Origin: a virus
Lineage: Duplodnaviria > Caudoviricetes
Virus record (IMG/VR): IMGVR_UViG_3300020042_004377
Span: 1 to 50,521 of that record
DNA length: 50,521 nucleotides
Direction: 5' to 3' (one strand)
The translations under genes were made by a program, and so were the position numbers. A model generated the notes under the pieces. It made no database searches, was not told the origin of the DNA, and saw only the letters and a list, made by a program, of their open reading frames with translations. Every line of letters begins with the position of its first letter. Position 1 is the stretch's first letter. Below, piece by piece: positions 15,199-33,915 of this stretch.

Positions 15199-15405
15199 TG
15201 GGTAATGTAACGAGCAAATTTGAGTAGTAGAGGCCAAGATGGTACCAAGTTCAAAATCTGGGTGGTGGGGTCGTTTGGCTTTCATACTGTATGAAACATA
15301 AAACTGTCAGGCAATAGCTATCTCGTGCATTCTGTAGCTACTTGTGCCACAATAGAGCATCGGTTGAGAGAACATTCCGTTCTCGCCGATAACAAAGGAC
15401 TGATT

Positions 15406-15936
15406 GTGAACAACACATCAAAAACCCTCTCGCTCGACAATGTCGCCATCGCAACCCAAATCGGTGTTACTCTCGCCGAACTGAACCTTGTTGAAAACAA
15501 GGCCGAGGTTCTCAAACGTGAGATTAACGGCAACATCAAGGCCTTGCATCACAACAAGGTCAAGGTGGGCATCTATCGCAAAGATGGTACGGGTTGCGCC
15601 GTTGCAACGGGCTTCATTGACGGATGCGTTGCTGGTGGCATCAAGGCTAGCACGGCACAACGTGTCTACCTTGGCACCTTCAAGAGTGCCGTTGCATCGG
15701 GCAAAGAAGTTGCCGATTGGAATTCTTCACGTGAGAAGTCCAAAGGTGGCGCATCAAACAAGGCAACTAAAAAGGCTGAGTTTGCAGATAAGCTTGCCAA
15801 AGCTTATCGGGATGAAGAATTTGCCGGATTCATCGTTGACCTCGAAAAGGCATGGGATGACCAGACCATCAAAACCTTGATGGAAGGTGTCAAATCCTAC
15901 CTCGAAATGAACGGCATCAAGACCGACAAGAAATAA
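15406..15936 (+). CDS. Hypothetical protein, first gene of the rightward arm
   Basis: ORF 15325..15936; likely GTG start at 15406 after AAAGGA; TGn-CACAAT extended -10-like site at about 15345-53; has its own terminator. Confidence 0.8.
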   Translation: MNNTSKTLSLDNVAIATQIGVTLAELNLVENKAEVLKREINGNIKALHHNKVKVGIYRKDGTGCAVATGFIDGCVAGGIKASTAQRVYLGTFKSAVASGKEVADWNSSREKSKGGASNKATKKAEFADKLAKAYRDEEFAGFIVDLEKAWDDQTIKTLMEGVKSYLEMNGIKTDKK

Positions 15937-15959
15937 CTTTCATACCGTATGAAAGCTTT

Positions 15960-15987
15960 AAGCCCCGCTTCGGCGGGGCTTTTTTTT
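15960..15987 (+). terminator. Intrinsic terminator
   Basis: AAGCCCCGC-TTCG-GCGGGGCTT followed by a T run. Confidence 0.92.
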
Positions 15988-16157
15988 GCCCAAAAATTTT
16001 GAGACCTGTATCCGATACCTGTTTCACGCCTGCCATCCAGTCCTACGCTGGACGCTTTCGGTGTGCATACAGACCGAAAATTCAACCTATCAACATCTTG
16101 TGGCGTGTTGTAGTTTCATCCCAACTACTAGCTCAGGTCTAATTAAAGGGTGCGAAA

Positions 16158-16388
16158 ACTGTTCCCTCGCCGCTGGCCGTGCTAGATGTAGTGACATAGT
16201 GGGGTATGTAGTTTGTCTGGAGTAATGCGGTATAACATGGTGCTGTATTGTGCTAAGACCCTTGACAGATTACTACGCCATACATCATCTTACGCTACAC
16301 ACGCTACATACCCCACTATGTTATTCTAACTTTCATACTGTATGAAAGTTGCTTATACTTCTGAACACTGTTCCCTCGCCGCTGGCCG
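16158..16388. repeat. 22-bp direct repeat ACTGTTCCCTCGCCGCTGGCCG enclosing an 18-bp inverted repeat
   Basis: Direct repeat at 16158-79 and 16367-88; inverted repeat ACATAGTGGGGTATGTAG at 16194-211 and 16304-21. Confidence 0.9.
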
Positions 16389-16446
16389 CACCGACCTGCT
16401 TAATTTTTGTGCAGAATACGTAACGCTGTAATAAGCAAGAGCATTA

Positions 16447-16775
16447 TCTACTTTATTCTGCAATATTCTATGCACCGGAATAAAACAATCCCCTTTTAAA
16501 TTAAGCACTTGCGAAGAATTATTCCCCTATTATTCTTATATTCTTATAAATATATATATATACCAATCTTAAATTTCTACATATATTCAATCATACAAAA
16601 AACATGTTGGCTGTGTGTTGTGAAAATCTATATTTTCTCTCTCCTTTGCTTTCTCTGGCTCAAATCTCAAAAATCAAAGAATAAAGGAATAATATACCCT
16701 CCTCCCCTCCTAACACGTTGATATCATTGAACTTTCTTTTATTCCTACCCCTAGAATATTGCAGAATAAAGTAGA
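16447..16775. repeat. Nested inverted repeats around an AT-rich (TA)n core, candidate replication origin
   Basis: Perfect 24-bp inverted repeat at 16447-70 and 16752-75; inner GGAATAAAA/TTTTATTCC; many TATTC/GAATA units; TATATATATATA near 16551-62. Confidence 0.75.
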
Positions 16776-16837
16776 CATTGCACTTCCCAGCACTCTTTCA
16801 TACTGTATGAAACCCCTTCATACTGCCTTATTTTGAC

Positions 16838-16866
16838 TTGACAAGACCATGTAAAGCTGTTACAAT
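16838..16866 (+). promoter_or_regulatory. Strong sigma70-type promoter
   Basis: TTGACA-17 bp-TACAAT with TGn extended -10; flanked by palindromes at 16796 and 16910. Confidence 0.88.
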
Positions 16867-16949
16867 AGAGGCTCATTCGGAACAAATACGTTTCAATGAC
16901 AGGGGCAACTTTCATACCGTATGAAAGCTGGCATCGTCCAAGCCCCTAG

Positions 16950-16961
16950 GCTCTTTAACAA
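16950..16961 (+). promoter_or_regulatory. boxA antitermination element (rrn/nut type)
   Basis: GCTCTTTAACAA matches the proteobacterial rrn boxA core; about 80 nt downstream of the promoter; a short hairpin AGCC-CCTA-GGCT overlaps its 5' end. Confidence 0.7.
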
Positions 16962-16964
16962 CCT

Positions 16965-17700
16965 ATAAGACACGCATGACAACTTGTTGTCATGTAAATC
17001 AAACCGCCGCTCGGAACTAATGTAATACGAGAAGCACAAAGGCAGAAGCAAGCAAAGAAGAAGGGCCGGAACTGCAAGGGCGGGTTGGCTAAACGTAGGC
17101 AACCTACTAGCACTCACAAGTGAAGTGCATAGCCAGACAAATACAGCGTCATGAATCAGCAAGGGCAACCCTGCATGAACGACAACGTAATTTCTGTCTG
17201 TACAAACAACCCCAACCCAAGCTATCCAAGATACCCCACAACGATGTGTGAAACCTCCCTGTGCGAATAGGCGTCTGGTAGTCAGTCCAGTGCATACGTG
17301 GTGTAGTGAGTAGTGAAACTGATTGTTTCCGAAGAACGATAGCGTATGCAAACGTAAACCAATATAGATACTGCCTAAATGTGTTGGGGCTGGCTTTCAT
17401 ACCGTATGAATGCTGTGGGCGAAAGTCCTAAACCCCTAATGTGGAGTATGCGGTGGATGTAAAAAGAGTCAACAAGTCATCCACAGCCAACAACCACTAG
17501 AGACCCGAACCTGCGTAAGCAGGGATATGCGGCAATGACAAACACTATCGCAGTTAGTAAAGCAATAAAAGCGAAGCACGACCAAGTAACGACAAGTAAC
17601 TACGACGGTGCTGTGGTAACAACACAGCACAAGAGACTATAGCGTGTAGGGCATGGGTAACCATGTCCTATGCGGTGGCAGTCTCGCCATCGTTCAAAGG
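16965..17700 (+). ncRNA. Candidate large structured non-coding RNA (about 750 nt)
   Basis: No plus-strand ORF of 60 aa or more starts between 16722 and 17669; at least 8 stems, GNRA loops at 17417-28, 17510-23 and 17647-70, A-rich linkers; lies downstream of the promoter and boxA. Confidence 0.6.
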
Positions 17701-17711
17701 ATTCATACAGT

Positions 17712-17972
17712 ATGAAAGACTCAAATTCAATCCCAAACCTTTACATCGTGGACTACTGGAAGCCGTTCCCATCGTCTGAGTATGGCGGTGTGCAATGTGT
17801 TGTTGCACATAGTGATGCCGAGTGCGAACGCATCCTTGCAGATGACGTAGACGAGTTTCACCGTGGATACCATCCCGACTACCGTGAACGCATCGCCAAC
17901 TGCATCAAGAGAGCCAAGCGTTTCCCTGTGGATGCCGCAGATGTGGGCATCGTGTACGAATTCAGAACTTAA
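17712..17972 (+). CDS. Hypothetical early protein
   Basis: MKDSNSIPNLYIVDYWKPFPSSEYGG; the ATG lies within a palindrome copy. Confidence 0.7.
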   Translation: MKDSNSIPNLYIVDYWKPFPSSEYGGVQCVVAHSDAECERILADDVDEFHRGYHPDYRERIANCIKRAKRFPVDAADVGIVYEFRT

Positions 17973-17984
17973 AGGAGAGAGCAA

Positions 17985-18395
17985 ATGAAATACAACTCAT
18001 TGATGGAAGCACAGATGGGCGAATGGCCTGACAGCTTGGTGCTGACCGACCGACAGATGTGCGAAGCACTCGAGCGGGTTGTGCCCGACTGGATGACCAA
18101 CCACAAGATGAAAGACTGGCCCATGTATGACGCACGCCATGAATTTGGGGAGTGGTATGCGCCCATCTTTTATATGGATTGGAAACATCTACAGATTGAG
18201 CAGACACGCGCAAGGTGGGCGCGTAGTGCGTTCTATTACCGAAGCGGTGACCCTGCTGGGTTCTTCTATGCGTGCGGCAAGCAAGACGATGGGACATACC
18301 GCCATGTGGGGTTCCGCTACGGCACAGAGGACTGCGAGTACGCATCGGGGTTTGATGGCATGACTTACACACCAACCAAAGGAGAGAGCAAATGA
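17985..18395 (+). CDS. Hypothetical early protein
   Basis: 136 aa; RBS module AAAGGAGAGAGCAAATG. Confidence 0.75.
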   Translation: MKYNSLMEAQMGEWPDSLVLTDRQMCEALERVVPDWMTNHKMKDWPMYDARHEFGEWYAPIFYMDWKHLQIEQTRARWARSAFYYRSGDPAGFFYACGKQDDGTYRHVGFRYGTEDCEYASGFDGMTYTPTKGESK

Positions 18396-18586
18396 ACGTA
18401 TTTATCAACTTGAACAAAGTTTTCACGGAAGCCATGAATCACATGCAAGACCCCAACGATGTGCGTTGGTCTATTGGTATGGCGCTTCAAGAATTGTATG
18501 GAGACGAGTGGATGTACAAACTTCAACAGGACATGGTTTACGAATTTAACTTGCGGCACACACCGGAACAAAAGGAAAGCAAATGA
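18392..18586 (+). CDS. Hypothetical early protein
   Basis: 64 aa; same RBS module; ATGA coupling. Confidence 0.75.
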   Translation: MNVFINLNKVFTEAMNHMQDPNDVRWSIGMALQELYGDEWMYKLQQDMVYEFNLRHTPEQKESK

Positions 18587-18753
18587 ACTTATACGAATGC
18601 ACGAACACGTGTAATGGGGCTGTGCTGGTTGTTACTGCGAGTAGCAAGGCACAGGCAGAGAGACATGCAGGGTACATACTGGGTGTGGGTAGACGCACTT
18701 GGTTGTTGCGTGTGAGAGAAGTTTCATACAGTATGAAAGGAGAAAGCAAATGA
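18583..18753 (+). CDS. Small hypothetical early protein (56 aa, not in the ORF track)
   Basis: MNLYECTNTCNGAVLVVTASS...EVSYSMKGESK; ATGA-coupled at both ends. Confidence 0.65.
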   Translation: MNLYECTNTCNGAVLVVTASSKAQAERHAGYILGVGRRTWLLRVREVSYSMKGESK

Positions 18754-18977
18754 ACATGACTTGGAACCACAGGGTAATGAACTGCCCATCTGAAAACGGC
18801 GGCGATGACAACTTCACATTCCGTGAGGTGTACTACAAAGAGGACGGCACACCCTTTGCACATGGCGAAGCCTTCATGAGCGGTGACACCGTAGAGGAAC
18901 TGCACATGCTGGTGCGGCGGTTGGAGACTGCGTTGGGTGAGCCCGTGATGCACGAGAACGAATTTGAAAAGGAATGA
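18750..18977 (+). CDS. Hypothetical early protein
   Basis: MNMTWNHRVM..FTFREVYY..; RBS AAAGGAGAAAGC. Confidence 0.75.
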   Translation: MNMTWNHRVMNCPSENGGDDNFTFREVYYKEDGTPFAHGEAFMSGDTVEELHMLVRRLETALGEPVMHENEFEKE

Positions 18978-19150
18978 ACATGGACAACAAATACGAACGC
19001 AAACTGCTCGATAAACAAAAGGACACACGTGACAACACGTTGTGGATTGGTATGGTCACGAAGAAGCCGAAACAGGTCTCTGAGGTTTCATACCGTATGA
19101 AAGTGTCTGAGCGTGACAACTTGAAACTTGAAAGAGAGGGATGGAAATGA
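18974..19150 (+). CDS. Small hypothetical early protein (58 aa, not in the ORF track)
   Basis: MNMDNKYERKLLDKQKD...REGWK; ATGA-coupled at both ends. Confidence 0.6.
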   Translation: MNMDNKYERKLLDKQKDTRDNTLWIGMVTKKPKQVSEVSYRMKVSERDNLKLEREGWK

Positions 19151-19485
19151 AAAAACCGTATGTAGCAAACCGTGATGCACGGCGTTGTGTGCAAGAGTGC
19201 ATTCAATTCAGCGGCAGTAACGTGTGGGGCGAATGCGTTGATGCAGATACAGGCGAAGTTGCACTAAATTATGTGGTGTATAGCTTTCGTTACACGTGGC
19301 CCTTGTTCGTGTTCGATGAATTGGCGCAGGTCTGGTACGAGAACGTGGACAAGGCTTCCACGACCACAAGCAAACACCAGACGCAACTGCACCCGCTGTG
19401 CAACACCATACCGCTGGGTGTGGAGGACATGCGGATTGTGGCGCGTTTGGGTGGTGTAGGTCTTATTTCAAAGGAGATGGTATGA
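19147..19485 (+). CDS. Hypothetical early protein
   Basis: MKKPYVANRDAR..YVVYSF..PLFVFD..WYEN..S.TTSKH pattern. Confidence 0.75.
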   Translation: MKKPYVANRDARRCVQECIQFSGSNVWGECVDADTGEVALNYVVYSFRYTWPLFVFDELAQVWYENVDKASTTTSKHQTQLHPLCNTIPLGVEDMRIVARLGGVGLISKEMV

Positions 19486-19667
19486 AAGCGAAAGATTGGG
19501 TAATTCTGCGGTTGGTGTATGAAATCACCTCAAACGAAGCGTATGTGGCACGAACGAACAGCGATGTTATGAGGTCAATCCTGTACTTGATGCGTAAGTA
19601 TGGGGCGAAGCACATGTCCGAGTGCATGTTTAAGTTGAATGAAGAAAAGGAGAGCAACGATGAGTGA
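19482..19667 (+). CDS. Hypothetical early protein
   Basis: MKAKDWVILRL; AAGGAG RBS; ATGA coupling. Confidence 0.65.
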   Translation: MKAKDWVILRLVYEITSNEAYVARTNSDVMRSILYLMRKYGAKHMSECMFKLNEEKESNDE

Positions 19668-19881
19668 TTGCAGAATTTGTGGGGATGAGATTGACCCGCC
19701 CGAAAGGGCAAAACTCAAGCCGTACTGTCTCATGTGTGGCGAGGACATGGCACGAGCCGAGCGCCGTTCGTGGACTGTGGTGCAGGAATACGGCAAGGGT
19801 GGGTATATGTTTGTGACACAGCAGTCTGCCCACGTCACATTGAAACAAACAAACCAAAAGAACTTGAGGTGCGACATATGA
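19660..19881 (+). CDS. Small zinc-finger protein (CxxC..CxxC, TraR/DksA C4-like spacing)
   Basis: MSDCRICGDEIDPPERAKLKPYCLMCG. Confidence 0.65.
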   Translation: MSDCRICGDEIDPPERAKLKPYCLMCGEDMARAERRSWTVVQEYGKGGYMFVTQQSAHVTLKQTNQKNLRCDI

Positions 19882-20111
19882 AGCTAAGAGACATACGCAA
19901 GCGGGCGCAGACAAAGTACGTGCATGAGTCAGGGTTCCGGTTCATTCGTGACTACACAGGCAAGCGTTGCCGCACTTACGTGATGGGGTGTTCAACGTGC
20001 GATGGGTGGAGGTTCTTTGATGAGCATGGGCGGTTCGTGCACACCGATGTCGAACTGTGGAACTACATGCTGGACCTCAAGATAGAACGTGGACTTGACA
20101 CGTGTGTGTAA
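19878..20111 (+). CDS. Hypothetical Cys-containing protein
   Basis: MKLRDIRKR..GKRC..GCSTCDGW; ATGA coupling. Confidence 0.65.
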   Translation: MKLRDIRKRAQTKYVHESGFRFIRDYTGKRCRTYVMGCSTCDGWRFFDEHGRFVHTDVELWNYMLDLKIERGLDTCV

Positions 20112-20123
20112 AGCTGTTATAAT
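20095..20123 (+). promoter_or_regulatory. Consensus sigma70 promoter
   Basis: TTGACA-17 bp-TATAAT with TGn; shares TGTAAAGCTGTTA with the 16838 promoter; palindrome at 20168 downstream. Confidence 0.9.
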
Positions 20124-20193
20124 GTAGTTTGTTAGGTTGTTATTGTGTGTTAGTTAAACAAACGCGGTTTCATACCGTATGAAAGGAAGCAAG

Positions 20194-21066
20194 ATGAACG
20201 TATCTAAACTCTCTGGGTCTGCATTGATTGTCAACATGTCGTTGTCCGTATGGACAGGGCGCAAGCTGGATAAGCGTGTGTCGGAGGAGGTTGACCAGCA
20301 GAACTCTACCAAGACCCGCGCTGGCAATTACCACAAGAACCTGATGGCAGGTAGTGGCAAGCTGGAGGAAATCACCAAAGTGGCAAACGCCGTGCGTACA
20401 TGGCACTACACCGTGACACAGCCGTGGGGCGACAACGGCGACAGGGTGCTGAACATGGCATCGTTCGTGGACTACAAGTCACGGCTGACCGAGTACGAGC
20501 GTCAGTTTGCAACTGCTGTCAACAACTTTCTCAATGACTACGACACGATGGTCGCCGCAGCGGCGTTCCAGTTGGGCGACTTGTTCAGCAGGGATGACTA
20601 CCCACACCGAGACCAAATCGTTGGCAAGTTTGGGTTCCGGTATGCGTTCTCGCCCCTGCCTATGGCTGGCGACTTCCGTGTGGACATTGGCGAGGAAGGG
20701 TTGCGCGAGATGCAAGACCACTACGAGGGTGTGCTGAGTACCCGACTGGGTGAAGCGATGAAGGACGCTTGGGACAGGCTGTATGACGTGTTGACACGCA
20801 TGAGTGAGCGGTTGACCGATGACGTTGGCCCTGATGGCGAGCCCAAGCGCAAGATATTCCGCGACACATTGGTGGAGAACACATTGGAGGTGTGCAGTTT
20901 GTTACGGCACTTCAATATCACAGGGGATACACGTCTGGAAGCTATGCGTATGCAGTTGGAGGATGCGATGCGCGGCATTGATGCGGCTTCATTACGTGAG
21001 AGCGACATGTTGCGTGAGCAGACCAAGCGCAAGGTGGACGCTATGTTGGATAGGTTTTCTCTTTGA
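20194..21066 (+). CDS. DUF3150-like helical protein
   Basis: SLSVWTGRKLD, FSRDDYP..KFGF..PLP..DFR and LRHFNITGD; typical neighbour of AAA/vWA pairs. Confidence 0.6.
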   Translation: MNVSKLSGSALIVNMSLSVWTGRKLDKRVSEEVDQQNSTKTRAGNYHKNLMAGSGKLEEITKVANAVRTWHYTVTQPWGDNGDRVLNMASFVDYKSRLTEYERQFATAVNNFLNDYDTMVAAAAFQLGDLFSRDDYPHRDQIVGKFGFRYAFSPLPMAGDFRVDIGEEGLREMQDHYEGVLSTRLGEAMKDAWDRLYDVLTRMSERLTDDVGPDGEPKRKIFRDTLVENTLEVCSLLRHFNITGDTRLEAMRMQLEDAMRGIDAASLRESDMLREQTKRKVDAMLDRFSL

Positions 21067-21168
21067 GGAAACAGGTCTCGCGGCTTTCATACCGTATGAA
21101 AGTTGCGTTGTGTAAGTGGATGGGGTACAAACCGTATCCCGAGTTTTTCAAACCGAAAGGAAATCATC

Positions 21169-22248
21169 ATGTCTATGTATAAATCTCTCTCCCTACAACA
21201 AACCGCTGACCTCATCGCGGCGATTGGCGACAAGCAAACCGTGCTGGCATCTGGCGAGATGGGCATTGGCAAATCATCAATCCTCAAGATGTTGAAGGCA
21301 ATGCCTAAATTCAAAGACCACTTGTTCTGCTACGTGGACATTACGACCAAGGACGTTGGCGACTTCATGGTTCCCAAGATTCGCACCATCGATGGCGTTG
21401 AGGTGTGCTCATTCATTCCGAACGAGGAGTTTGGTCTGCACTTCAAAGGCAAGAAGGTTGTGATGATGCTGGACGAGTTGGGCAAGGCCAAAGGCGGCGT
21501 GATGAATGCGTGTCTGCGTCTAATGCAAGAGCGTTCGTTGGGTATGTATGACTTGGACGGCATCGTGTTTGCCACAACGAACTTAGGCATAGAGGGTATC
21601 GGTGACAACGTGCCACCCCATGCACGTAATCGTGTGACTCAGGTTCGTGTTCGTAAGCCCAATGCACAAGAGTTGATGGAGTATGCAATCAACAACAACT
21701 GGAACCCAATCGTTATCGCAACTATCAACGAGTTTCCCGAGATGTTGGCATCCTTTGAGGACTACGAGAAACCCGAGCAGAACATGTACATCAATGACCC
21801 ACGTGATGTACGTATGGCTGTGGTTACCCCACGTTCTTTGGACAAGTCTGGTTACATCATTGACCAGACGATGGCGTTGGGCGATGACATTATGTGTCAT
21901 GCGTTGAAGGGCACTATTGGCGAGAAGGCAATGCACAACATATTGACGATGGTGAAGTTGGATACACAATTAACCAATTGGGATGACCTCATCAAGTCTC
22001 CCACGACTGCGACTGTGCCCACGTCAGCGGCGGCGGCATGTATGTTGGTTGCCAAGGCAGTACAGCGCATTGAGAAGGTGAGCATAGATGCGTGGATGGA
22101 CTTCCTCCCACGTATCAGCAAGGAAGCACAGGGTTTGTTTGCACGTAGCGTTATGAGCGACAAGTGCCCCAAGCGTACTGTGGCGGCGACCAACCCCAAG
22201 TTTGCCAAGTGGGCGGCTGACAACAACTATTTGTTTGCACGTAAGTAA
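21169..22248 (+). CDS. AAA+ ATPase (MoxR/CbbQ-like)
   Basis: Walker A GEMGIGKS, Walker B MMLDE, sensor ATTN, TPRS. Confidence 0.85.
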   Translation: MSMYKSLSLQQTADLIAAIGDKQTVLASGEMGIGKSSILKMLKAMPKFKDHLFCYVDITTKDVGDFMVPKIRTIDGVEVCSFIPNEEFGLHFKGKKVVMMLDELGKAKGGVMNACLRLMQERSLGMYDLDGIVFATTNLGIEGIGDNVPPHARNRVTQVRVRKPNAQELMEYAINNNWNPIVIATINEFPEMLASFEDYEKPEQNMYINDPRDVRMAVVTPRSLDKSGYIIDQTMALGDDIMCHALKGTIGEKAMHNILTMVKLDTQLTNWDDLIKSPTTATVPTSAAAACMLVAKAVQRIEKVSIDAWMDFLPRISKEAQGLFARSVMSDKCPKRTVAATNPKFAKWAADNNYLFARK

Positions 22249-22257
22249 GGAGGATAT

Positions 22258-22386
22258 ATGACAACACCAGCAGAACTGTATGACTTGTTAGACAAGGCAG
22301 GTATTGAGTATGAAATCGTGGAGATATTCGAGGGTGTTCGCATCCTCAGTATCGAAGTAAATGAACCAACCGAAGAAGGAGAGTAA
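22258..22386 (+). CDS. Small acidic protein (42 aa, not in the ORF track)
   Basis: AAGGAGG RBS; MTTPAELYDLLDKAGIEYEIVEIFEGVRILSIEVNEPTEEGE. Confidence 0.65.
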   Translation: MTTPAELYDLLDKAGIEYEIVEIFEGVRILSIEVNEPTEEGE

Positions 22387-22388
22387 TC

Positions 22389-23603
22389 ATGTTTGTAACA
22401 ACAACACAATCGTTGCCTGCGTTGAAGCGCATTGAGCGTGCTCACGTTGAATTGATGGCACACAAAGATACTATGGAGTATGCAGGCATCATCATGGTGG
22501 GCAAGTACACGGTGGTGGACAACATCCCAACCGCATGTACCAACGGCATCGACTGCATGTATGGCAAGAAGTTTGTAGAAGAGTTGTCCGACTCTGACCT
22601 GCGTGGTCTCATCATGCACGAGAACTTGCACAAAACATTCCAGCATACGTTCTTGTGGAAACATCTGTACGAGGAGAACGCACGATGCGCCAACATGGCG
22701 TGTGACTACGTAATCAACATCCTCATCAAAGATATTGACAAGGCATCGAGCGGGTTTGTCACTCTGCCCAAGCAAGGGTTGTATGACGAGCGTTTCCGTG
22801 GCATGGACTCGCAAGAGGTGTTCAACATCTTACTGGATGAGAGCGAGGATGGTGATGGCGGTGATGGCGGTGATGGCGGTGATGGCGGTGATGGCGGTGA
22901 TGGCGGTGATGGTGGTGATGGGTTCGACTCTCACGACTGGGACACATCTGACCTCACACAAGAGGAGATTGAGGAACACATGAAGGAGGTCAATCAAGCC
23001 ATCCGTCAGGGTCAGTTGTTGGCTGGCAAGATGGGTGGCAATGTGTCCCGCGACTTGGGTGCGTTGCTTGATTCAAAGGTTGATTGGCGTGAGCAGTTGC
23101 GTGACTTTGTGAACAGTCTGGCCGATGGCAAGGATGTATCCACATGGCAACGTGTTAATCGGCGTTGGTTACAGCATGACATGTACATGCCCTCCACATT
23201 GTCCGAGAGCATGGGGCGTATCGTGGTTGCCATCGACACATCTGGTTCATGCTTTGATGCGTTAGAGCCGTTCTTATCTGAGATGCAAGCCATATGTGAC
23301 AACGTACAGCCAGAACTTGTGGACTTGTTGTACTGGGATACCGAGGTGGCACGGCATGAGGTGTATGGGCGTGATGACCTGCACAAACTTGTGAAGTCTA
23401 CGAAACCCGCTGGCGGCGGTGGCACTGACCCCGCATGTATCCCCAAGTACATCGAAGCCAAAGGGTTGAAGCCGGATTGTGTCGTAGTGCTCACCGATGG
23501 ATATGTTGGTGGGTGGGGTACATGGCGGCATCCGGTGTTGTGGTGTATCGCTGGTGGGTACAAGCCCCGCCCCTCCACAGGCGTGGCAATCTATATCGAT
23601 TGA
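22389..23603 (+). CDS. DUF2201-type putative metallopeptidase plus vWA domain protein
   Basis: TACTNG, HENLH (HExxH), NMACDYVIN, MIDAS DTSGS, GGGGT and VLTDG. Confidence 0.85.
   Translation: MFVTTTQSLPALKRIERAHVELMAHKDTMEYAGIIMVGKYTVVDNIPTACTNGIDCMYGKKFVEELSDSDLRGLIMHENLHKTFQHTFLWKHLYEENARCANMACDYVINILIKDIDKASSGFVTLPKQGLYDERFRGMDSQEVFNILLDESEDGDGGDGGDGGDGGDGGDGGDGGDGFDSHDWDTSDLTQEEIEEHMKEVNQAIRQGQLLAGKMGGNVSRDLGALLDSKVDWREQLRDFVNSLADGKDVSTWQRVNRRWLQHDMYMPSTLSESMGRIVVAIDTSGSCFDALEPFLSEMQAICDNVQPELVDLLYWDTEVARHEVYGRDDLHKLVKSTKPAGGGGTDPACIPKYIEAKGLKPDCVVVLTDGYVGGWGTWRHPVLWCIAGGYKPRPSTGVAIYID
22851..22922. repeat. 9-bp in-frame tandem repeat (GGTGATGGC)x6 plus 2 variants
   Basis: Encodes a (GDG)n linker. 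Confidence 0.95.
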
Positions 23604-23644
23604 GAAACAGGTCTCGCAGTAACTAACAAACGAAAGGAAAAATC

Positions 23645-24601
23645 ATGGCATCAATAAGAGAATTTTCTAGGAAGTATTGGTACGGCTCTTATATTGGCAT
23701 AGACAACTACGACATAGCAAAGGAGAACTACGAAAAGACGTTACCAATCCAAGGTAAGCGATTGAAGCATGGCATTGATGTGCGTCCCTTGACCGTTCGG
23801 CGGCGTGTGTGGGAAACGTGGCACAAGGATGGGGATGCCTACGGCATGGCGTTCGTTCAATCCTATTGCCAAACCACACGTGACTCAAAAACACAAAAGG
23901 TTATTAAAGAAGAGTACGTACACAACGTGCATCCGTTGCTGATGTTTCAACCCGATGGGGCAATAGAGTTTAATCCTTCATGGATGACCTACTACCCCAC
24001 ATGGGATGTGCTTGGTGCGTTGTTGCCCAAGGGCATAACTTACGTGCGGTACGGTAGCAAGAGTTACTTCAAGCTGGATATGCCAGATGGTATGGAGCCT
24101 ATGCACATGTTTAGCCCAGGTACAAAGATGACTTTCATACCGTATGAACATGAAGGCAAACGTTACTTCCGTGTGGACTGCCCCATATCAGAGACCAAGA
24201 TACTGATAGATAGGGACAAAGCAAAGAAGGTACGCGCAGAACTAAAAGCGTTCTTGGACTACTGCGAGTACATGGTAGACCTAGCACCCGCACCAACCAA
24301 ACACGACTGGAAAGCCGAAGCAAATGCAGAGGGTTGGTTGGAGACTATTGATTGGTTGGTGCGTAACGAAGGCGAGGAAATTGGAAGTAAATGGTTTCCT
24401 GCAATAGAAGCGTTTGTAGTGACATATGCAAGGTATGTGTACGACTACAAAACCCAAACAAGCGCGGCCATTCCCGTAGATGCTGGTGGCTTACGTGACA
24501 GATTGAAGGGTCACAAACTGTATGGGTACACCAGACCATACAGGGTTGAGTACGTGCCAATTGGTAAACCATTCTTTAAAAACGGGAGGACGATGGAATG
24601 A
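23645..24601 (+). CDS. Hypothetical protein
   Basis: 318-aa ORF with GAAAGGAAA RBS; contains the palindrome copy at 24133. Confidence 0.8.
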   Translation: MASIREFSRKYWYGSYIGIDNYDIAKENYEKTLPIQGKRLKHGIDVRPLTVRRRVWETWHKDGDAYGMAFVQSYCQTTRDSKTQKVIKEEYVHNVHPLLMFQPDGAIEFNPSWMTYYPTWDVLGALLPKGITYVRYGSKSYFKLDMPDGMEPMHMFSPGTKMTFIPYEHEGKRYFRVDCPISETKILIDRDKAKKVRAELKAFLDYCEYMVDLAPAPTKHDWKAEANAEGWLETIDWLVRNEGEEIGSKWFPAIEAFVVTYARYVYDYKTQTSAAIPVDAGGLRDRLKGHKLYGYTRPYRVEYVPIGKPFFKNGRTME

Positions 24602-24687
24602 TGACGTTATATGAGAAGGTAGAGAGAGTGGTGTTTTTGGTGGCACTCATTGTGGTGCTGTTGGATGTTTTTATTTGGAGGACATGA
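24598..24687 (+). CDS. Small membrane peptide (29 aa, not in the ORF track)
   Basis: MMTLYEKVERVVFLVALIVVLLDVFIWRT; GGAGG RBS; ATGA-coupled at both ends. Confidence 0.6.
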   Translation: MMTLYEKVERVVFLVALIVVLLDVFIWRT

Positions 24688-25580
24688 ACATGATTTCAAA
24701 AGATGATTACGTTGGCGACTATGGCTACAACAGATTTGTAGACGTGAGTAGTGGTTCACTCAGCGCAGGGTGGAAACATTGGATTGAGGACATACCCGTG
24801 TCCTTACACCTGCTCAAGTTTTACAACGAGGTCAAGCACAAGCGTAAAGATATTGTTGTGCGTGTTGACAACCGCCCTACGAATGTTATTTGTGAGGGTG
24901 GAGAACCCGCTTACATATTCCCCGAACTGGGGTTGGCGTTCAGCGATGCGCCTGAGTTGAAGTGCGGTGGCATAGGCATGGAGAGACACATAGTGGGGGA
25001 TTGGGTGTACTACGTGCGGTCTGCACTCATAAGAAACGAGAAGTACAAACCAAGCAACAAGGATGGGTACAACGTCCTCAAGACCAAGAACTTTGCCAAG
25101 GCAATCAAGAACGTCTTGCAGTACGTCAAACCCGTTGAGATGGCATGGCTGATGGAGGACAAGGAAGCTGATTTGAGCAGAGCAGTTATGAATATTCGGG
25201 CACCTGCCCAAGAGGTGTATCACAAAGCCCTTGGCATGGGGCGTAACGCTATACGTCAAGAGATTGATAACATGATTCGCATGGGGTATGCGCCTATGAC
25301 CCAAGATTTTAAGGAAGCCTTTGCGTTGATGGAATCCCAAGGTAGCGACCTCAAGCGTGTAGCCAACTACAAACCCCGCACATGCTTTGTGTGGGCGAAG
25401 CCTGACAAGGTGGAGTTTAAGTACAGCGACGAGGACCAGATACACGTTGTGTACAACGTACAAGATGTTCCTGAGAACATAAAAGACAAGATCGCGGTCC
25501 TGCAAATTGGAGGTGATGGGGATGCCGTTATGGACGTTGGCACAAAGATTTCCAACACAATGTACTGGGTGTTCGTATGA
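24684..25580 (+). CDS. Hypothetical protein
   Basis: ORF of about 298 aa in a coupled operon. Confidence 0.8.
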   Translation: MNMISKDDYVGDYGYNRFVDVSSGSLSAGWKHWIEDIPVSLHLLKFYNEVKHKRKDIVVRVDNRPTNVICEGGEPAYIFPELGLAFSDAPELKCGGIGMERHIVGDWVYYVRSALIRNEKYKPSNKDGYNVLKTKNFAKAIKNVLQYVKPVEMAWLMEDKEADLSRAVMNIRAPAQEVYHKALGMGRNAIRQEIDNMIRMGYAPMTQDFKEAFALMESQGSDLKRVANYKPRTCFVWAKPDKVEFKYSDEDQIHVVYNVQDVPENIKDKIAVLQIGGDGDAVMDVGTKISNTMYWVFV

Positions 25581-25921
25581 GCGAGTTGGAAGTACATGTG
25601 GGCAATGACCTTGCCAAAAATCTACATGAGGCCGTGCTTGAACAGTACATACGCATGATGATGCTTGAACAAAAGATTGACGCACTCAGGGTTTGTATCA
25701 ATGACAATGGTACTTTTGACATTGTAGACTTTACAATGCCGACCCGTGGTGATAAGCTACGGAAAAACATCCCTCAAGAGGATGTTCCGCAATGGGTGAT
25801 GCAAGCGGTATCAATGCTACGCATCGCAGACACAGGGAATCTTGTAGAAGGTGTCGGGTTCAAAGTATCCGATAGAGTCTATTACCTCGAAGATAAAGGA
25901 GAAGCAGATGAACAGCAATAA
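25577..25921 (+). CDS. Hypothetical protein; C-terminus resembles that of the preceding protein
   Basis: DVPQWVMQAVSMLRI..VEGVGFKVS versus DVPENIKDKIAVLQI..VMDVGTKIS. Confidence 0.75.
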   Translation: MSELEVHVGNDLAKNLHEAVLEQYIRMMMLEQKIDALRVCINDNGTFDIVDFTMPTRGDKLRKNIPQEDVPQWVMQAVSMLRIADTGNLVEGVGFKVSDRVYYLEDKGEADEQQ

Positions 25922-26144
25922 GTTTCCGAGATACACAACCAAAACAGGTATCAAGATCGGGCAGTACTACGCCCCAATGCAGATCAACAACCTCACCGTA
26001 GAAGAAGAGCGCATTCAAAGGGTGTTACTAGGTGTACGTGAGGACATATGTGTGCTCATTGAAAAACTGGTCTACTACGGCGCAGTATTTCTTGTGGCAT
26101 TCATCATCGCGTTTCTAATGACACGCCCAGCGGGTGATGTATGA
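25908..26144 (+). CDS. Hypothetical protein with a C-terminal TM helix
   Basis: MNSNKFP..YTTKTGIKIG..YYGAVFLVAFIIAFLM. Confidence 0.7.
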   Translation: MNSNKFPRYTTKTGIKIGQYYAPMQINNLTVEEERIQRVLLGVREDICVLIEKLVYYGAVFLVAFIIAFLMTRPAGDV

Positions 26145-26344
26145 AGGCCATACTTGAATTCACATATCCCGAAGATCAAGACAAGCTACGACACGCACTC
26201 AACGGCACCAAAGCCATACACGCATTGATTGACATTCAGCTAACGGTGCGTAGCTATTTCAAGCACGATGCCGACCCATTGATGGTGCTGGCACTGGTCA
26301 GGGACTTGACCAACACGGCTTTAAACGAGTGCGGGGAGGAGTGA
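26141..26344 (+). CDS. Hypothetical protein
   Basis: MKAILEFTYPED; coupled. Confidence 0.75.
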   Translation: MKAILEFTYPEDQDKLRHALNGTKAIHALIDIQLTVRSYFKHDADPLMVLALVRDLTNTALNECGEE

Positions 26345-26466
26345 TGGAAACAATCGCAACAACAATCCTTTTGGGGTTCATAGGTGTGGTGGTTGCTGGC
26401 CTTGTGCTGGTAGCACTGATGCGCTTGTGGTTCTGGATGGATGAGAACGAGAGGGGGGATAGATGA
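26344..26466 (+). CDS. Small membrane peptide (40 aa, not in the ORF track)
   Basis: METIATTILLGFIGVVVAGLVLVALMRLWFWMDENERGDR; GGAGG RBS. Confidence 0.6.
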   Translation: METIATTILLGFIGVVVAGLVLVALMRLWFWMDENERGDR

Positions 26467-26666
26467 GATACCGCATCACATACAACGATGGGATGTATGC
26501 CGACTGGGACTCAATGCAGAAAGAACTTGCATGGGCGTACAGGTGGGGCGTGTTTATGTATGCCATTCGACTCAACATCGGCGCATGGAGAGCGGGGCAC
26601 AAGTCGTTTAAATACTGGCTGTATGTCCTACGCAGGAAACCAAAGATCACACAGGAGGAAGCATGA
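26463..26666 (+). CDS. Hypothetical protein
   Basis: 67 aa; coupled. Confidence 0.6.
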   Translation: MRYRITYNDGMYADWDSMQKELAWAYRWGVFMYAIRLNIGAWRAGHKSFKYWLYVLRRKPKITQEEA

Positions 26667-26905
26667 ACGAAGAAGACGAAGCATTTGAACAGCTATCTTT
26701 AAAGCAAGGTAGCTGGGAACACACCAGCGGCTGGCGCAAGAAACAAATTGCACACATGGATGTGCATAGCCACCCCGCTGAGTTTGTACACCTACACCGC
26801 AACGACACGCTGGAGGAGGTGGCAAAGGTTGTGGAAAAGGTGATGATAAAGCGGGGCGACACAGGGCACGATATTGCACGGCTTGTCAGGAGTATGAAGC
26901 GATGA
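26663..26905 (+). CDS. Hypothetical protein
   Basis: 80 aa; RNDTLEEVAK motif; AGGAGG RBS. Confidence 0.7.
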   Translation: MNEEDEAFEQLSLKQGSWEHTSGWRKKQIAHMDVHSHPAEFVHLHRNDTLEEVAKVVEKVMIKRGDTGHDIARLVRSMKR

Positions 26906-27000
26906 TGACCACCATTGAATTTCTGGAGTCCCATTTCTGGGCGCTGTGGTGGCTGGTTGCTTGGCTGGGCCTTTGCCTTGGAAATTGGGGGAAGAAATGA
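26902..27000 (+). CDS. Small Trp-rich membrane peptide (32 aa, not in the ORF track)
   Basis: MMTTIEFLESHFWALWWLVAWLGLCLGNWGKK; coupled at both ends. Confidence 0.5.
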   Translation: MMTTIEFLESHFWALWWLVAWLGLCLGNWGKK

Positions 27001-27326
27001 ATAACTTTTTTATGGACGCACTCAAAGTCACTGGGACTACGCTACTGCTTGTCTTAATCGCCTGTCTTTTCATCCTGGTAGGGGTTGTATTTCTGCAAGC
27101 CACATTTGGCCCAAGCGAGGAACAACGGGCCAAGGATCGCATCCCCGCCGCTGTATCAAGCGCAGACGGATGCACGGTCTACAAGTTCTACGACAACAGC
27201 AGTTGGCACTACTTCACCAAGTGCGGCGGCACGGTGACCACGACCAAAAACTACACGGAGAGCTGCGGCAAGGGCTGTAGCCGCCCCCGCACAGAGGCTA
27301 TGACAACGGAGGGGAATCAACCATGA
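26997..27326 (+). CDS. Membrane-anchored protein with a Cys-containing extracytoplasmic domain
   Basis: N-terminal TM helix; DGCTVYKFYD..YFTKC..CGKGC. Confidence 0.7.
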   Translation: MNNFFMDALKVTGTTLLLVLIACLFILVGVVFLQATFGPSEEQRAKDRIPAAVSSADGCTVYKFYDNSSWHYFTKCGGTVTTTKNYTESCGKGCSRPRTEAMTTEGNQP

Positions 27327-27577
27327 AAACTTCCGCACAGAAAAAGTTTGAATTGGCATTGCACGATGTGCCAATGTGCGCCGTATGCAACAAGCGTGTT
27401 GATCGCATGGAGTCCATGTATGACATCAACCATTATCAAAAAGGGTTTCGTGTGTACTGCCACGGACAAACTGAAGATGCGTTTCTCAGCGACATGGACA
27501 TTTGGGACGCAGACAGTATTCGCATGGGTCAGGCATTCATTGACAAGCTACCTCAACCACAACTGGAGAACAAATGA
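27323..27577 (+). CDS. Hypothetical Zn-binding protein
   Basis: CAVC..YCHG. Confidence 0.7.
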   Translation: MKTSAQKKFELALHDVPMCAVCNKRVDRMESMYDINHYQKGFRVYCHGQTEDAFLSDMDIWDADSIRMGQAFIDKLPQPQLENK

Positions 27578-27798
27578 ACAAGCCGATTACCTCCAATAAA
27601 TTTGCAACAGACACTTGGAAAATGGTGCAAATGTTGGTTGACGAAGCAGTCTTGGCAGAGCGTGAAGCGATAGCAAAAATGATTGAAGACGCACCCGCCC
27701 TGATGGACTTTGCACGGAATGACCAAGGTGGTTGCTTGATGTGTGGGTTTACGCCAAAACTGGCGGCTCAATTTATTAGAGCAAGGGGACAAGAATGA
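27574..27798 (+). CDS. Hypothetical protein
   Basis: AEREAIAK..IRARG pattern; coupled. Confidence 0.7.
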   Translation: MNKPITSNKFATDTWKMVQMLVDEAVLAEREAIAKMIEDAPALMDFARNDQGGCLMCGFTPKLAAQFIRARGQE

Positions 27799-28136
27799 TT
27801 AAAAGCGCACTGAAATATCTTGAGCCCAACGCATGTGTGCCGATTGATATGGAAACCACAATCATGCTGGTCAACGCACTCAAAGAAGCCTTGGCACAGC
27901 GCACAGAGCAAGAGCCTGTGGCATGGTACGACCCAAGCAACGGCGTGGTCAGTACAGATAGAGACTGTCCGCTGTTTACACCGCTTGGTCAGGTGTGGCC
28001 TTTGTATCCAAAGGGTGAGTGGGTAGGGCTGACGGATGAGGAAATTTGGACTGTTTTGCAATTTAGAGGGTACAACAAAGACACTATTGAAATTGCCAAA
28101 GCCATTGAGGCCAAACTCAAGGAGAAGAACACATGA
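27795..28136 (+). CDS. Hypothetical protein (QEPVAW / WVGLTDEE family)
   Basis: QEPVAW..PLY..WVGLTDEEI..AIEAKLKEKN. Confidence 0.75.
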   Translation: MIKSALKYLEPNACVPIDMETTIMLVNALKEALAQRTEQEPVAWYDPSNGVVSTDRDCPLFTPLGQVWPLYPKGEWVGLTDEEIWTVLQFRGYNKDTIEIAKAIEAKLKEKNT

Positions 28137-28888
28137 TCTTTCTCATTAGGAAGCGCAAACTGGTGATTGATATGTTCACCTGTCGGCAGATGGTGTTTGA
28201 TGCGGCAAAGCCCAAAGCGGCGGCGCACTTCTACCCACAATGGTGGAAGGACTTGAAGCTGGAGATACCCATCCAGAACAGTTTGTTCCCTACTGCCACT
28301 ATGAAGCGGTGCATGGGTGTGGTCGATCACTACAAGCATGGCATCGTTCAACCGCTGTGGTCTGACTACACGCTGGAGGTGGGCGCTATTGGTGACCCGC
28401 ACTGGGCCGGGCAATTCTCTGACAGCACAAGCACCATGAGCCAGCACCCTGCTGTGTTACGTGGGTCGTTTGCGCCTGAGTCTCACTACTGCCACATGAA
28501 GTTTGACAACCCTTGGGTAGCAAGCTGTAAAGAAGATGTTTACTTCAAGTGGGAGCAACCAACGTGGAGTATGCCGAGTCTGTCCAGCTACGTCTTGTTA
28601 CCGGGCACGACTGAGTTTAAATACCAGTACAGCATGAATACAAACCTGCTGTTTGTGAAGGGGGCAACCACGATCACACATCGCTTGAAGTTTGGTCAGC
28701 CGTTGGTACACCTGACTGCGTTGACCGAGCGGGAGGTTGATCTGCGCCACCACATGGTTGAGCGTGAAGAGTACAACAAGTACTTGCAGGGCGAGAAGTT
28801 GAGTAACCTCAACCGATACCGCGAGTACCGCAGGGTGCGCGAGTCTGAAGAAAGCAAATGCCCGTTTGGGTTTGGGAGAAAGACATGA
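28133..28888 (+). CDS. Hypothetical protein, possibly DUF6065-like
   Basis: PQWWKDL..TMKRCMG..PLWSD..KFDNPW..LPG..GQPLVHL. Confidence 0.55.
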   Translation: MIFLIRKRKLVIDMFTCRQMVFDAAKPKAAAHFYPQWWKDLKLEIPIQNSLFPTATMKRCMGVVDHYKHGIVQPLWSDYTLEVGAIGDPHWAGQFSDSTSTMSQHPAVLRGSFAPESHYCHMKFDNPWVASCKEDVYFKWEQPTWSMPSLSSYVLLPGTTEFKYQYSMNTNLLFVKGATTITHRLKFGQPLVHLTALTEREVDLRHHMVEREEYNKYLQGEKLSNLNRYREYRRVRESEESKCPFGFGRKT

Positions 28889-29130
28889 GCAAATGGGATA
28901 ACCACAAGGACAGGGGCAACACCACCTTCAACAGGTGGGCAGAAGCCAACAGCGTTGCGAAGATGACACGCGAGATCAACACCTGGATGCACCAGCAGGG
29001 GCAACTGTGTTGGGCTTGCCAAAAAACATCACGCCCCCAACAAGGATGCGTACTCACCATAAAGCCAGGGTTTAAGAAGTATGTGTGTAAAGAATGTGTT
29101 GACGCACGCAAACCAAAGGAAATTATATGA
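28885..29130 (+). CDS. Small zinc-finger protein
   Basis: CWAC..CKEC. Confidence 0.65.
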   Translation: MSKWDNHKDRGNTTFNRWAEANSVAKMTREINTWMHQQGQLCWACQKTSRPQQGCVLTIKPGFKKYVCKECVDARKPKEII

Positions 29131-29318
29131 AAGGTGGGGCAAGACCGGGCAGTGGGCGCAAGCCCACACTGATTGACGAGCGAAGAGCCTTGAGCCTACA
29201 CAAGCAGGGCGAGTCAATGCGGAAGATTGCCGAGCGGTTCGGTGTGAGCATCCAAGTAATCAAGTATTTTTTTAAGAAGCAAAGGAGGTTAGCAAATGAC
29301 GCCAGAGAAAAAAGTTAA
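29127..29318 (+). CDS. Small HTH DNA-binding protein
   Basis: GGARPGSGRKP hook plus GESMRKIAERFGVS HTH. Confidence 0.75.
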   Translation: MKGGARPGSGRKPTLIDERRALSLHKQGESMRKIAERFGVSIQVIKYFFKKQRRLANDAREKS

Positions 29319-29610
29319 GCAGAAGGTGGTCGATATGTTGAGAAAACATGACCCTGATATCTATTTCTTTTACCCCGTGGCAGGGGGGTATGGTTCAGCG
29401 GGTATCCCAGATATTGTGGGGTGTTACTGCGGAAGATTTTTTGCAATTGAGTGTAAGGCTGGCAAAGGCAAGACCACTGCATTGCAAGAGAAGAACATTG
29501 ATCGTATCCGTGAATGCGAGGGTCGCGTTATGGTGGTCAATGAGGAGAACTTGGACGATGTTCAAGTAATGTTGGAGAGTATAGAAACACACTTAAAAGG
29601 AGTGTATTGA
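29296..29610 (+). CDS. VRR-NUC / Holliday-junction resolvase-like nuclease
   Basis: MTPE..GIPDI..FAIECKAG..TALQ PD-(D/E)XK pattern. Confidence 0.85.
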   Translation: MTPEKKVKQKVVDMLRKHDPDIYFFYPVAGGYGSAGIPDIVGCYCGRFFAIECKAGKGKTTALQEKNIDRIRECEGRVMVVNEENLDDVQVMLESIETHLKGVY

Positions 29611-29611
29611 A

Positions 29612-30241: not shown

Positions 30242-30243
30242 CA

Positions 30244-30462
30244 ATGGGACGGATGAAAGATAAGTGGCTCCAAGAAATAGAGCACACGGAAATCTACGAA
30301 CAGGCACGAGAAGAAGGCCGAGTGATTGTCATTGGGGACTATGCCATCTGGGATTTAAACCATGAACAGTTTGGCATGTCTCATCGCAACGGTGAGGTGG
30401 GTGTATTCAAGAAAGCAGATTTTGAAGCCTACCTTGCCGCATTTTTTGGATTGAACTTTTAA
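30244..30462 (+). CDS. Hypothetical protein
   Basis: 72 aa; stop overlaps the polymerase start. Confidence 0.65.
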   Translation: MGRMKDKWLQEIEHTEIYEQAREEGRVIVIGDYAIWDLNHEQFGMSHRNGEVGVFKKADFEAYLAAFFGLNF

Positions 30463-33710: not shown

Positions 33711-33724
33711 TTTTTGATGGAGCA

Positions 33725-33862: not shown

Positions 33863-33915
33863 ACAAATCTAACCTTCAAACATAGTGTTTGGAGTGCATA
33901 ACTATCGGAGAGATT

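What the first reader, a model, noticed from the sequence alone, without database searches (positions are those of the whole stretch)
16965..17700. Candidate giant structured ncRNA (~750 nt) as the first product of the early promoter
Seen: no credible plus-strand CDS in an otherwise tightly packed genome, yet dense pairing. Stems include CATGACAA/TTGTCATG (16975-94); TGGCTA/TAGCCA (17086-135) enclosing two hairpins; TGCATACG/CGTATGCA (17291/17343); GGGC-GAAA-GTCC (17417); GTGGATG/CATCCAC (17453/17478); CCTGC-GTAA-GCAGG (17510); GTGCTGTG/CACAGCAC (17608-30); and GAGACT/AGTCTC enclosing TAGGGCATGG-GTAA-CCATGTCCTA (17633-85). GNRA loops, G-U pairs and A-rich linkers all read correctly on the plus strand. 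Established: GOLLD and ROOL are large phage-associated RNAs of similar size. Inference: a member of such a class or a new one, with its own promoter, operators and boxA; it may act as a scaffold, decoy or anti-defence RNA.
Basis: partly seen in the sequence, partly recalled or inferred. Interest (0 to 1): 0.86.

Follow-up and report, generated by a model that had tools for sequence, protein, structure and literature searches.

The report
Optional giant RNA leading phage genes
A 740-base gene-free stretch at the head of this phage's early genes belongs to an uncatalogued family of intricately folded RNAs that related phages repeatedly gain or lose as one unit, so it is likely an optional RNA tool used on the host rather than a required switch.

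Summary
16950-17692 (+) is one member of a family of structured phage RNAs: 62 distinct full-length copies, 331-771 nt. Its helices are supported by compensatory changes (35 of 55 pairs), including two crossing (pseudoknot) pairings. It matches no Rfam family, in the window or in 20 homologues, and has no tRNA nearby, so it is not GOLLD or ROOL. The promoter and operators are not the RNA's own, and no terminator follows. Of 38 related phages read through the early promoter, 24 carry boxA plus RNA and 14 carry neither, with at least five gains or losses; five complete genomes lack it. No phage protein tracks with it. Best reading: an optional early RNA effector, with boxA as its folding and anti-Rho signal. 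Function is inferred and expression is not shown. The scan noted other boxA-led phage RNAs before; sequence look-ups did not return this family.

The parts
15325..15936 (+). Upstream gene of no known family, probable reader of the palindromic operators; used here as a marker for related phages
   Evidence: No PHROG or Pfam hit; relatives in 53 viral loci; followed by operator 15939 and a strong terminator 15960-15981. The regulator role comes from earlier scan notes and was not tested here.
16838..16866 (+). Sigma-70-type early promoter TTGACA-17-TACAAT; predicted start near 16873; shared with phages that lack the RNA
   Evidence: promoter-like site upstream in 52 of 53 homologues against 3 of 594 control windows; present in RNA-less sisters
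16873..16945 (+). Short 5' leader with operator copy 16911-16925; the part up to the operator is also present in RNA-less sisters
   Evidence: folds with z = -3.58
16950..16961 (+). boxA (GCTCTTTAACAA), the NusB-S10 binding signal of rRNA operons; 5' edge of the cassette
   Evidence: consensus in PMC13753749; present in 24 of 24 RNA-bearing and 0 of 14 RNA-less relatives
16969..16971 (+). GAC, 5' strand of a short long-range pseudoknot with loop bases 17281-17283
   Evidence: Among 57 distinct strand/loop combinations: GT loops 41 of 41 have AC; GC loops 10 of 10 have GC; TC loops 2 of 2 have GGA; TG loop 1 of 1 has CA; CC loops 0 of 3 have GG
16975..16994 (+). Hairpin P1, variable in sequence; often replaced by the phage's operator palindrome in relatives
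17001..17290 (+). Universal core: three-way junction (17005-08/17270-73; 17010-13/17028-31; 17034-38/17260-64) and hairpin 17275-17290 with loop GUAGUCAGUC; encloses a variable 220-nt insertion (17039-17259)
   Evidence: insertion replaced by a shorter segment in relatives and shared by 5 other copies
17291..17350 (+). Helix P6 (17291-98/17343-50), conserved non-canonical loop UGGUGUA/GAUAG, and hairpin P7 with an AGUA/GAA loop-E-like motif
   Evidence: AGUA..GAA in 40 of 56; module not found in 8 of 77 distinct elements
17370..17554 (+). 3' domain closed by long-range helices 17370-74/17550-54 and 17381-84/17542-45; holds GAAA (17421) and GUAA (17515) tetraloop hairpins and operator copy 17396-17410
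   Evidence: domain not found in 5 of 77 distinct elements
17555..17632 (+). A/C-rich linker and optional hairpin 17608-17630
17633..17692 (+). Terminal module: stem 17646-56/17661-71, helix 17633-38/17680-85 and crossing hairpin 17673-79/17686-92 (pseudoknot or two-state fold); 3' end of the structured RNA
   Evidence: Stem found in 47 of 56, crossing hairpin in 45 of 47, upstream pairing of 5 bp or more in 39 of 47; mean 5.6 bp against shuffle maximum 5.17; z = -5.93
17696..17972 (+). Ribosome-binding site, operator copy 17702-17716 over the start codon (17712), and first early gene (phrog_21741, unknown function)

Best explanation
The stretch is a conserved, pseudoknotted non-coding RNA cassette (boxA plus about 740 nt) between the phage's early promoter and first early gene; it is likely among the first RNA made after infection and would act as an optional RNA effector that binds a host factor, not as a required switch. 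Steps: (1) host RNA polymerase starts near 16873 (inferred from a near-consensus promoter). (2) boxA recruits NusB-S10 and the rRNA-type complex, which shields about 820 untranslated bases from Rho and holds the 5' end so that GAC 16969-71 and CGCC 17005-08 can meet partners 270-310 nt downstream (boxA function established for rRNA operons; its use here is inferred). (3) The RNA folds into a compact three-way-junction core with optional peripheral domains (shown by covariation). (4) The terminal pseudoknot would block 3'-to-5' exonucleases, so the RNA would outlast the mRNA behind it (inferred). (5) The folded RNA, perhaps as an oligomer, would act as a decoy or scaffold for a host RNA-binding machine, such as a termination factor, nuclease or defence sensor, helping on some hosts only (inferred from position and patchy distribution). 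The operators inside it are DNA signals tolerated in variable loops.
For: Covariation of nested and crossing helices. boxA and RNA are gained or lost together: 24 with both, 14 with neither, 0 mixed among 38 informative relatives. At least 5 and most simply 8 changes on the marker-gene tree. Five complete genomes lack it while 10 of 10 chosen RNA-bearing genomes hold one copy. A clean indel lies between the same promoter and the same first gene. No phage protein family tracks with the RNA in 11 RNA-bearing against 5 RNA-less genomes, so any partner is host-made or absent. Neighbouring small early genes are also patchy. rRNA-type complexes fix the boxA end and promote long-range pairing (PMC8632103); boxA alone suffices to form the complex (PMC13753749).
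Against: No target, partner or activity was identified. Expression is not shown: only contigs were available; one RNA run looks like DNA (flat depth 56 across 5 kb) and another covers the RNA and nearby genes at similar low depth. No terminator or proven processing site separates the RNA from the mRNA, so a free RNA is an inference. The marker alignment was built from RNA-bearing loci, so 24 of 38 is not an unbiased frequency. The 5' pseudoknot is only 2-3 bp and has a mismatch in one clade. The host is unknown; no prophage copy was found (0 of 9 pattern hits).
Confidence: 0.45

Rival explanations
1. Cis-acting processive antiterminator: boxA and the folded RNA stay on the polymerase, like a large nut, put or EAR element, and push host polymerase through the 24-kb early operon.
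For: It lies directly behind the strongest early promoter, carries a consensus boxA and has no terminator after it, so a boxA-loaded polymerase would enter the operon. No RNA polymerase gene was found among the 67 window ORFs scanned (the record is about 80% complete).
Against: 14 of 38 relatives run the same promoter and operon without it. Terminator-like sites in 21000-40999 are not enriched (25 against 21.9 expected). A second consensus promoter at 20095 has no boxA. boxA alone would suffice, which leaves 330-770 nt of conserved fold unexplained.
Confidence: 0.22
2. Catalytic or selfish RNA: a new ribozyme class that cleaves or splices itself out of the early transcript, or a passenger element that spreads by recombination between related phages.
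For: Invariant unpaired bases around a three-way junction, two crossing pairings, module swapping and patchy distribution. In the window the cassette is flanked by operator copies 16911 and 17702, which could mediate exchange.
Against: No Rfam ribozyme or intron match. Recalled hallmark motifs of group I, group II and hammerhead RNAs were found in at most 4 of 56 copies, an RNase P-like word with 2 mismatches in 9 of 56. It occupies one fixed site, one copy per genome, has no ORF, and interrupts no gene.
Confidence: 0.13
3. Ligand-binding RNA: a riboswitch-like sensor for the early genes, or a sponge for a nucleotide second messenger of host defence.
For: 5' position on the transcript, a compact conserved junction and a terminal module that could take two folds.
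Against: No terminator; the terminal hairpin ends before the ribosome-binding site and does not pair with it in the window; the first downstream gene differs among carriers; no riboswitch match.
Confidence: 0.1
4. A diverged GOLLD or ROOL RNA.
For: Similar size, phage origin, several junctions, pseudoknots and GNRA loops (PMC12286853, PMC5737381).
Against: No match to any Rfam model even at E up to 5 in the window or E up to 1 in 20 homologues; no tRNA in the window or in 42 loci; here the 5' part is the universal core, whereas GOLLD conserves its 3' part.
Confidence: 0.03
5. Not a functional RNA: a DNA element (origin, packaging or ejection signal), an unannotated coding region, or chance folding.
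For: It lies near an AT-rich, repeat-rich gap that may be the genome end; operators inside it are DNA signals; minus-strand frames are often open (30 and 31 of 56 at 60 codons or more); transcription is unproven.
Against: Compensatory changes in long-range and crossing helices, frequent G-U pairs on the plus strand, a plus-strand boxA and promoter, and frame-breaking indels; complete genomes do without it.
Confidence: 0.04

Closest known systems
[quoted passage not shown]
   Same: Large, multi-junction, pseudoknotted phage RNA of unknown function with a conserved part and a variable part (PMC12286853 passages).
   Different: No model match; no tRNA neighbours; the universal core is 5', not 3'; shorter (median 600 nt); sits in the early leader with boxA and no terminator.
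ROOL RNA (rumen-originating, ornate, large)
   Same: Similar mean length (581 nt), several junctions and pseudoknots, no known protein partner, dispensable in at least one strain. Short kissing contacts there are intermolecular, which is possible for the 3-bp pseudoknot here.
   Different: No model match; more invariant bases here; not near tRNA islands; one fixed position at the head of the early operon.
rRNA operon leader antitermination element (boxA; NusA, NusB, NusE/S10, NusG, SuhB, S4)
   Same: Consensus boxA placed just before a long untranslated structured RNA whose 5' end pairs far downstream.
   Different: What follows is not rRNA or tRNA; boxB and boxC were not identified; factor binding is untested.
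Phage and bacterial RNA antiterminators (lambda nut, HK022 put, EAR); details partly recalled
   Same: Promoter-proximal RNA element ahead of a long operon read by host polymerase.
   Different: Several times larger, absent from many sister phages with the same operon, and no N-like protein tracks with it.
Short candidate structured RNAs from IMG/VR (Fremin et al. 2023, PMC10690425)
   Same: Same source collection and covariation logic; fragments of this RNA could be among them.
   Different: Those candidates are 29-151 nt. Six core words were not found in the 3 of 6 held supplement files that could be searched; the alignment files could not be read.

Membership tests
GOLLD RNA | Match to the Rfam covariance model | tested here: not met
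   Searches (window; 20 homologue loci): no GOLLD hit at any reported E-value
GOLLD RNA | Often next to tRNA genes or in prophages | tested here: not met
   0 tRNAs in the window and in 42 loci; 0 of 9 pattern hits in bacterial genomes were real
GOLLD RNA | Universally conserved 3' region, variable 5' region | tested here: not met
   The 5' junction is the universal part; 3' modules are missing in some copies
ROOL RNA | Match to the Rfam covariance model | tested here: not met
Large ornate phage ncRNA (broad kind) | Several hundred nt, no conserved ORF, multiple junctions and pseudoknots supported by covariation | tested here: met
Large ornate phage ncRNA (broad kind) | Accumulates as an abundant discrete RNA | tested here: inconclusive
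   Only contigs of RNA runs; low depth similar to neighbouring genes
Large ornate phage ncRNA (broad kind) | Forms RNA-only oligomers or cages | not testable with these tools
   Needs mass photometry or cryo-EM
rrn-type antitermination element | Consensus boxA downstream of the promoter on the transcribed strand | tested here: met
   consensus UGCUCUUUAACA from PMC13753749
rrn-type antitermination element | NusB-S10 binding and read-through of Rho terminators | not testable with these tools
   Needs binding and reporter assays
Group I or group II intron, RNase P RNA, tmRNA, known small ribozymes | Rfam or ARAGORN match and hallmark catalytic motifs | tested here: not met
   recalled motifs mostly absent
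Riboswitch | Aptamer match plus expression platform (terminator or ribosome-site sequestration) and a fixed class of downstream gene | tested here: not met
   No Rfam match; no terminator; downstream genes vary

The most novel reading that the evidence does not exclude
A new class of large RNA that works as a protein-free early host-takeover or anti-defence effector. Phages swap it in and out like an early accessory gene, it borrows the host's rRNA transcription chaperone through boxA, and it folds, perhaps into an oligomeric particle, to neutralise a host machine in the first minutes of infection.
Probability: 0.3. Interest if true: 0.92.

Novelty: new variant of a known kind. Interest (0 to 1): 0.77.

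Why it matters
Large, intricately folded bacterial and phage RNAs are rare, and for GOLLD, ROOL and OLE the structure is known but the function is not. This family adds an unrelated fold and offers handles those classes lack: natural sister phages with and without the cassette at one exact site, natural deletion variants from 331 to 771 nt that map a minimal core, no phage protein partner, and a boxA that ties it to the host's rRNA transcription machinery. A short natural member can be transcribed in vitro and tested at once for folding, oligomer formation, catalysis and host-protein binding. If it acts in trans, it would show that phages carry RNA as well as small proteins among their early accessory functions.

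Tried and rejected
Rfam at gathering and E-value level: nothing relevant; three weak sub-threshold matches overlap the RNA (E 0.98-4.6). blastn against GenBank phages and plasmids: no match. Five isolates nearest by terminase or primase (terminase 47-55% identical for four of them) hold no copy in their whole genomes; best E 0.6. Prophage search: 9 pattern hits in bacterial genomes, none confirmed; this was one exact pattern, so diverged copies could be missed. GAUAG/CUAUC pairing (17338-42 with 17545-49): rejected, because each side is lost without the other in some copies and GAUAG covaries with UGGUG in L170 and L075. A T-box-like idea, that UGGU pairs with tRNA CCA, was rejected for the same reason. 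TGGCTA/TAGCCA: not in the consensus of the insertion. Minus-strand ORFs as genes: rejected. Protein partner: the families enriched in RNA-bearing genomes were almost all antisense shadow ORFs; two real small ORF families were in 5 of 11 against 0 of 5 genomes, too few to be a partner. Expression: run X1 covers the region flat like DNA; X2 has six short pieces from 16892 to 17637 and also pieces in genes; X4 has one piece; none can show level or ends. A text search for six core words returned only unrelated primers among the 30 of 397 papers listed. A second marker scan for the more distant clade could not be run, so gain and loss was counted in one clade only. Two helices were entered one base out of register in the constrained fold (17313/17330, 17504/17533); the fold still reached -213.0 against -224.2 kcal/mol unconstrained.

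Full report
Setting. The window is a 50.5-kb virus record, about 80% complete. Packaging and structural genes lie on the minus strand up to 15064 and again from 41145. A plus-strand arm from 17.7 to 40.9 kb holds small unknown genes, a DNA polymerase, exonuclease, helicase and primase. The closest isolates by terminase are DSL-LC04, 023Pt_psg01, the pelagiphages HTVC027P and HTVC023P, and Pag-Yong1, at 47-55% identity. Runs labelled marine, freshwater and lake metagenome hold close relatives. The host is unknown.

The observation. The region folds better than shuffles on the plus strand (z -3.08; minus strand -2.13). A near-consensus promoter lies at 16838-16866, the window's only exact boxA at 16950, and 12 exact copies of a palindrome, against 0.11 expected, span 15281-24148. 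Rfam gives nothing at gathering level and only sub-threshold noise at E up to 5. ARAGORN finds no tRNA or tmRNA. GenBank phages and plasmids give no blastn match.

The family. A scan for the palindrome returned 76 loci, several with 70-80% identical copies of the stretch. A core pattern then gave 38 viral loci, 37 of them real, 105 metagenome loci of which 78 matched the profile, and 9 loci in bacterial genomes of which none matched. An independent 5' pattern gave 45 loci, 40 matching, including diverged variants. There were 62 distinct full-length copies of 331-771 nt from boxA to the next ribosome-binding site; 56 remained below 97% identity, with mean identity 62%. A promoter-like site lies upstream in 52 of 53 copies with enough flank, against 3 of 594 control windows. 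Distances between conserved blocks fall in all three frames, so no reading frame is conserved.

Structure. The highest-scoring column pairs are base pairs, several of them long-range. With a tree-aware null, 6 pairs reach E<0.05 and all are base-pairing. Anchored counts on 55-56 sequences put seven helices above all 500 partner shuffles; the eighth, CGCC/GGCG, is nearly invariant, with one double change and one wobble. On a plain MAFFT alignment of 28 sequences, 35 of 55 pairs have changes on both sides and the score is 0.365, against 0.144 for shuffles and at most 0.099 for slid partners. Shuffles ignore relatedness, so the slid and tree-aware controls carry more weight. The universal core is a three-way junction plus the hairpin 17275-17290. 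The loop of that hairpin pairs with bases 7-9 nt behind boxA: loop GT goes with AC in 41 of 41 cases, GC with GC in 10 of 10, TC with GGA in 2 of 2 and TG with CA in 1 of 1, while CC lacks GG in 3 of 3. The GC form occurs in at least three clades. A terminal module has two crossing helices that both vary in step; these could form a pseudoknot or alternate. Peripheral modules are swapped or lost: of 77 distinct elements, 66 show both the P6/P7 loop motif and the 3' domain motifs and 11 lack one or both by pattern.

What belongs to the RNA. A phage-specific palindrome lies inside 52 of 56 copies, in variable loops, and differs between phages; it is a DNA signal, not part of the fold. The key result is the distribution. 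Using the upstream gene as a marker gave 53 loci; 15 ended before the promoter and were set aside. Of the other 38, 24 have boxA and the RNA and 14 have neither, going from promoter to operator to first gene in about 100-130 bases. The marker tree needs 8 changes, at least 5 on well-supported branches. Five complete genomes lack the RNA everywhere, while 10 of 10 chosen carriers hold one copy. An alignment of three carriers and two non-carriers shows a clean indel behind the same promoter, with the same first gene following in four of the five. The marker alignment came from carriers, so 24 of 38 is not an unbiased frequency. Comparing 11 carriers with 5 non-carriers found 41 shared ORF clusters and no real protein that tracks with the RNA. 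No terminator follows the RNA, and no tRNA lies near it in 42 loci.

Mechanism. Shown: a conserved folded RNA cassette, with boxA, that is optional. Established elsewhere: boxA loads NusB-S10, suffices for the rRNA-type complex and blocks Rho (PMC13753749, passages); that complex fixes the 5' end and promotes long-range pairing (PMC8632103, passages; PMC4807359, two passages). Inferred: the phage uses boxA to get about 820 untranslated bases made and folded; the terminal pseudoknot stabilises the 3' end; the RNA acts on a host factor. I put this at 0.45. A cis antiterminator (0.22) fits the position but not the 14 phages that do without it, the unenriched terminators (25 against 21.9) or the size of the conserved fold. 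A ribozyme or selfish RNA (0.13) and a ligand binder (0.10) cannot be excluded. Expression is not demonstrated: only contigs were available, run X1 looks like DNA, and run X2 covers the RNA from 16892 at depths like those of nearby genes.

Comparison with known RNAs. It resembles GOLLD and ROOL in size, complexity and phage origin (PMC12286853 and PMC5737381, passages). It fails their models in the window and in 20 homologue loci, lacks tRNA neighbours, and conserves its 5' rather than its 3' part. Paper searches (listings only unless named above) showed no description of this family. The library lacks most subscription papers. Fragments may be among the 29-151-nt candidates of PMC10690425 (passages), whose alignment files could not be searched. 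Earlier notes of this scan describe other boxA-led phage RNAs (unchecked here) and the palindrome and its probable reader in relatives. Sequence look-ups with five members returned no RNA note, so overlap with those RNAs is neither shown nor excluded.

Verdict. A real, apparently uncatalogued family of large structured phage RNAs, carried as an optional boxA-led cassette at the head of the early operon. It is new as a family and a new variant of the known kind of large ornate phage RNAs. Function and expression remain to be shown. Interest 0.77.

Noticed in passing
window 15281-24148: Twelve exact copies of the palindrome TTCATACNGTATGAA, confined to the early arm, several at or over start codons; relatives carry their own different palindromes.
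   Followed up: partly
window 15990-16830: Gene-free gap before the promoter with long inverted repeats (16437-16488/16734-16785; 16194-16225/16290-16321), a 26-nt direct repeat (16154, 16363) and a low-GC TA-rich stretch; may be the genome end or an origin.
   Followed up: no
window 20092-20123: Second early promoter, 12 of 12 consensus and 81% identical to the first over 32 nt, followed by an operator and a gene but no boxA.
   Followed up: partly
L257 5415-6130 minus strand (Planktothrix phage Pag-Yong1, OL906435.1): An isolate with the same gene layout has a GC-rich, hairpin-dense 700-nt stretch at the same place, before its first early gene (z -3.14, no Rfam match, no match to this family). 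It could be an unrelated analogue in a culturable phage. A short annotated ORF lies on the other strand.
   Followed up: partly
window 20179-23603: Three adjacent genes (DUF3150-like, ATPase, DUF2201 metallopeptidase/vWA) are present in all 16 genomes compared, unlike the small early genes.
   Followed up: no
L047 2057-2478: A GC-rich, degenerate copy with short tandem repeats inserted behind boxA and without the usual UGGUGUA/GAUAG loop; possibly a decaying or distant member.
   Followed up: no
L276, just behind the RNA: The first gene after the RNA reads like an HNH-type endonuclease by eye, unlike the small early genes of other carriers.
   Followed up: no
window 41145-47153: A 2002-aa protein whose C-terminal part matches DarB-like antirestriction profiles.
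   Followed up: no
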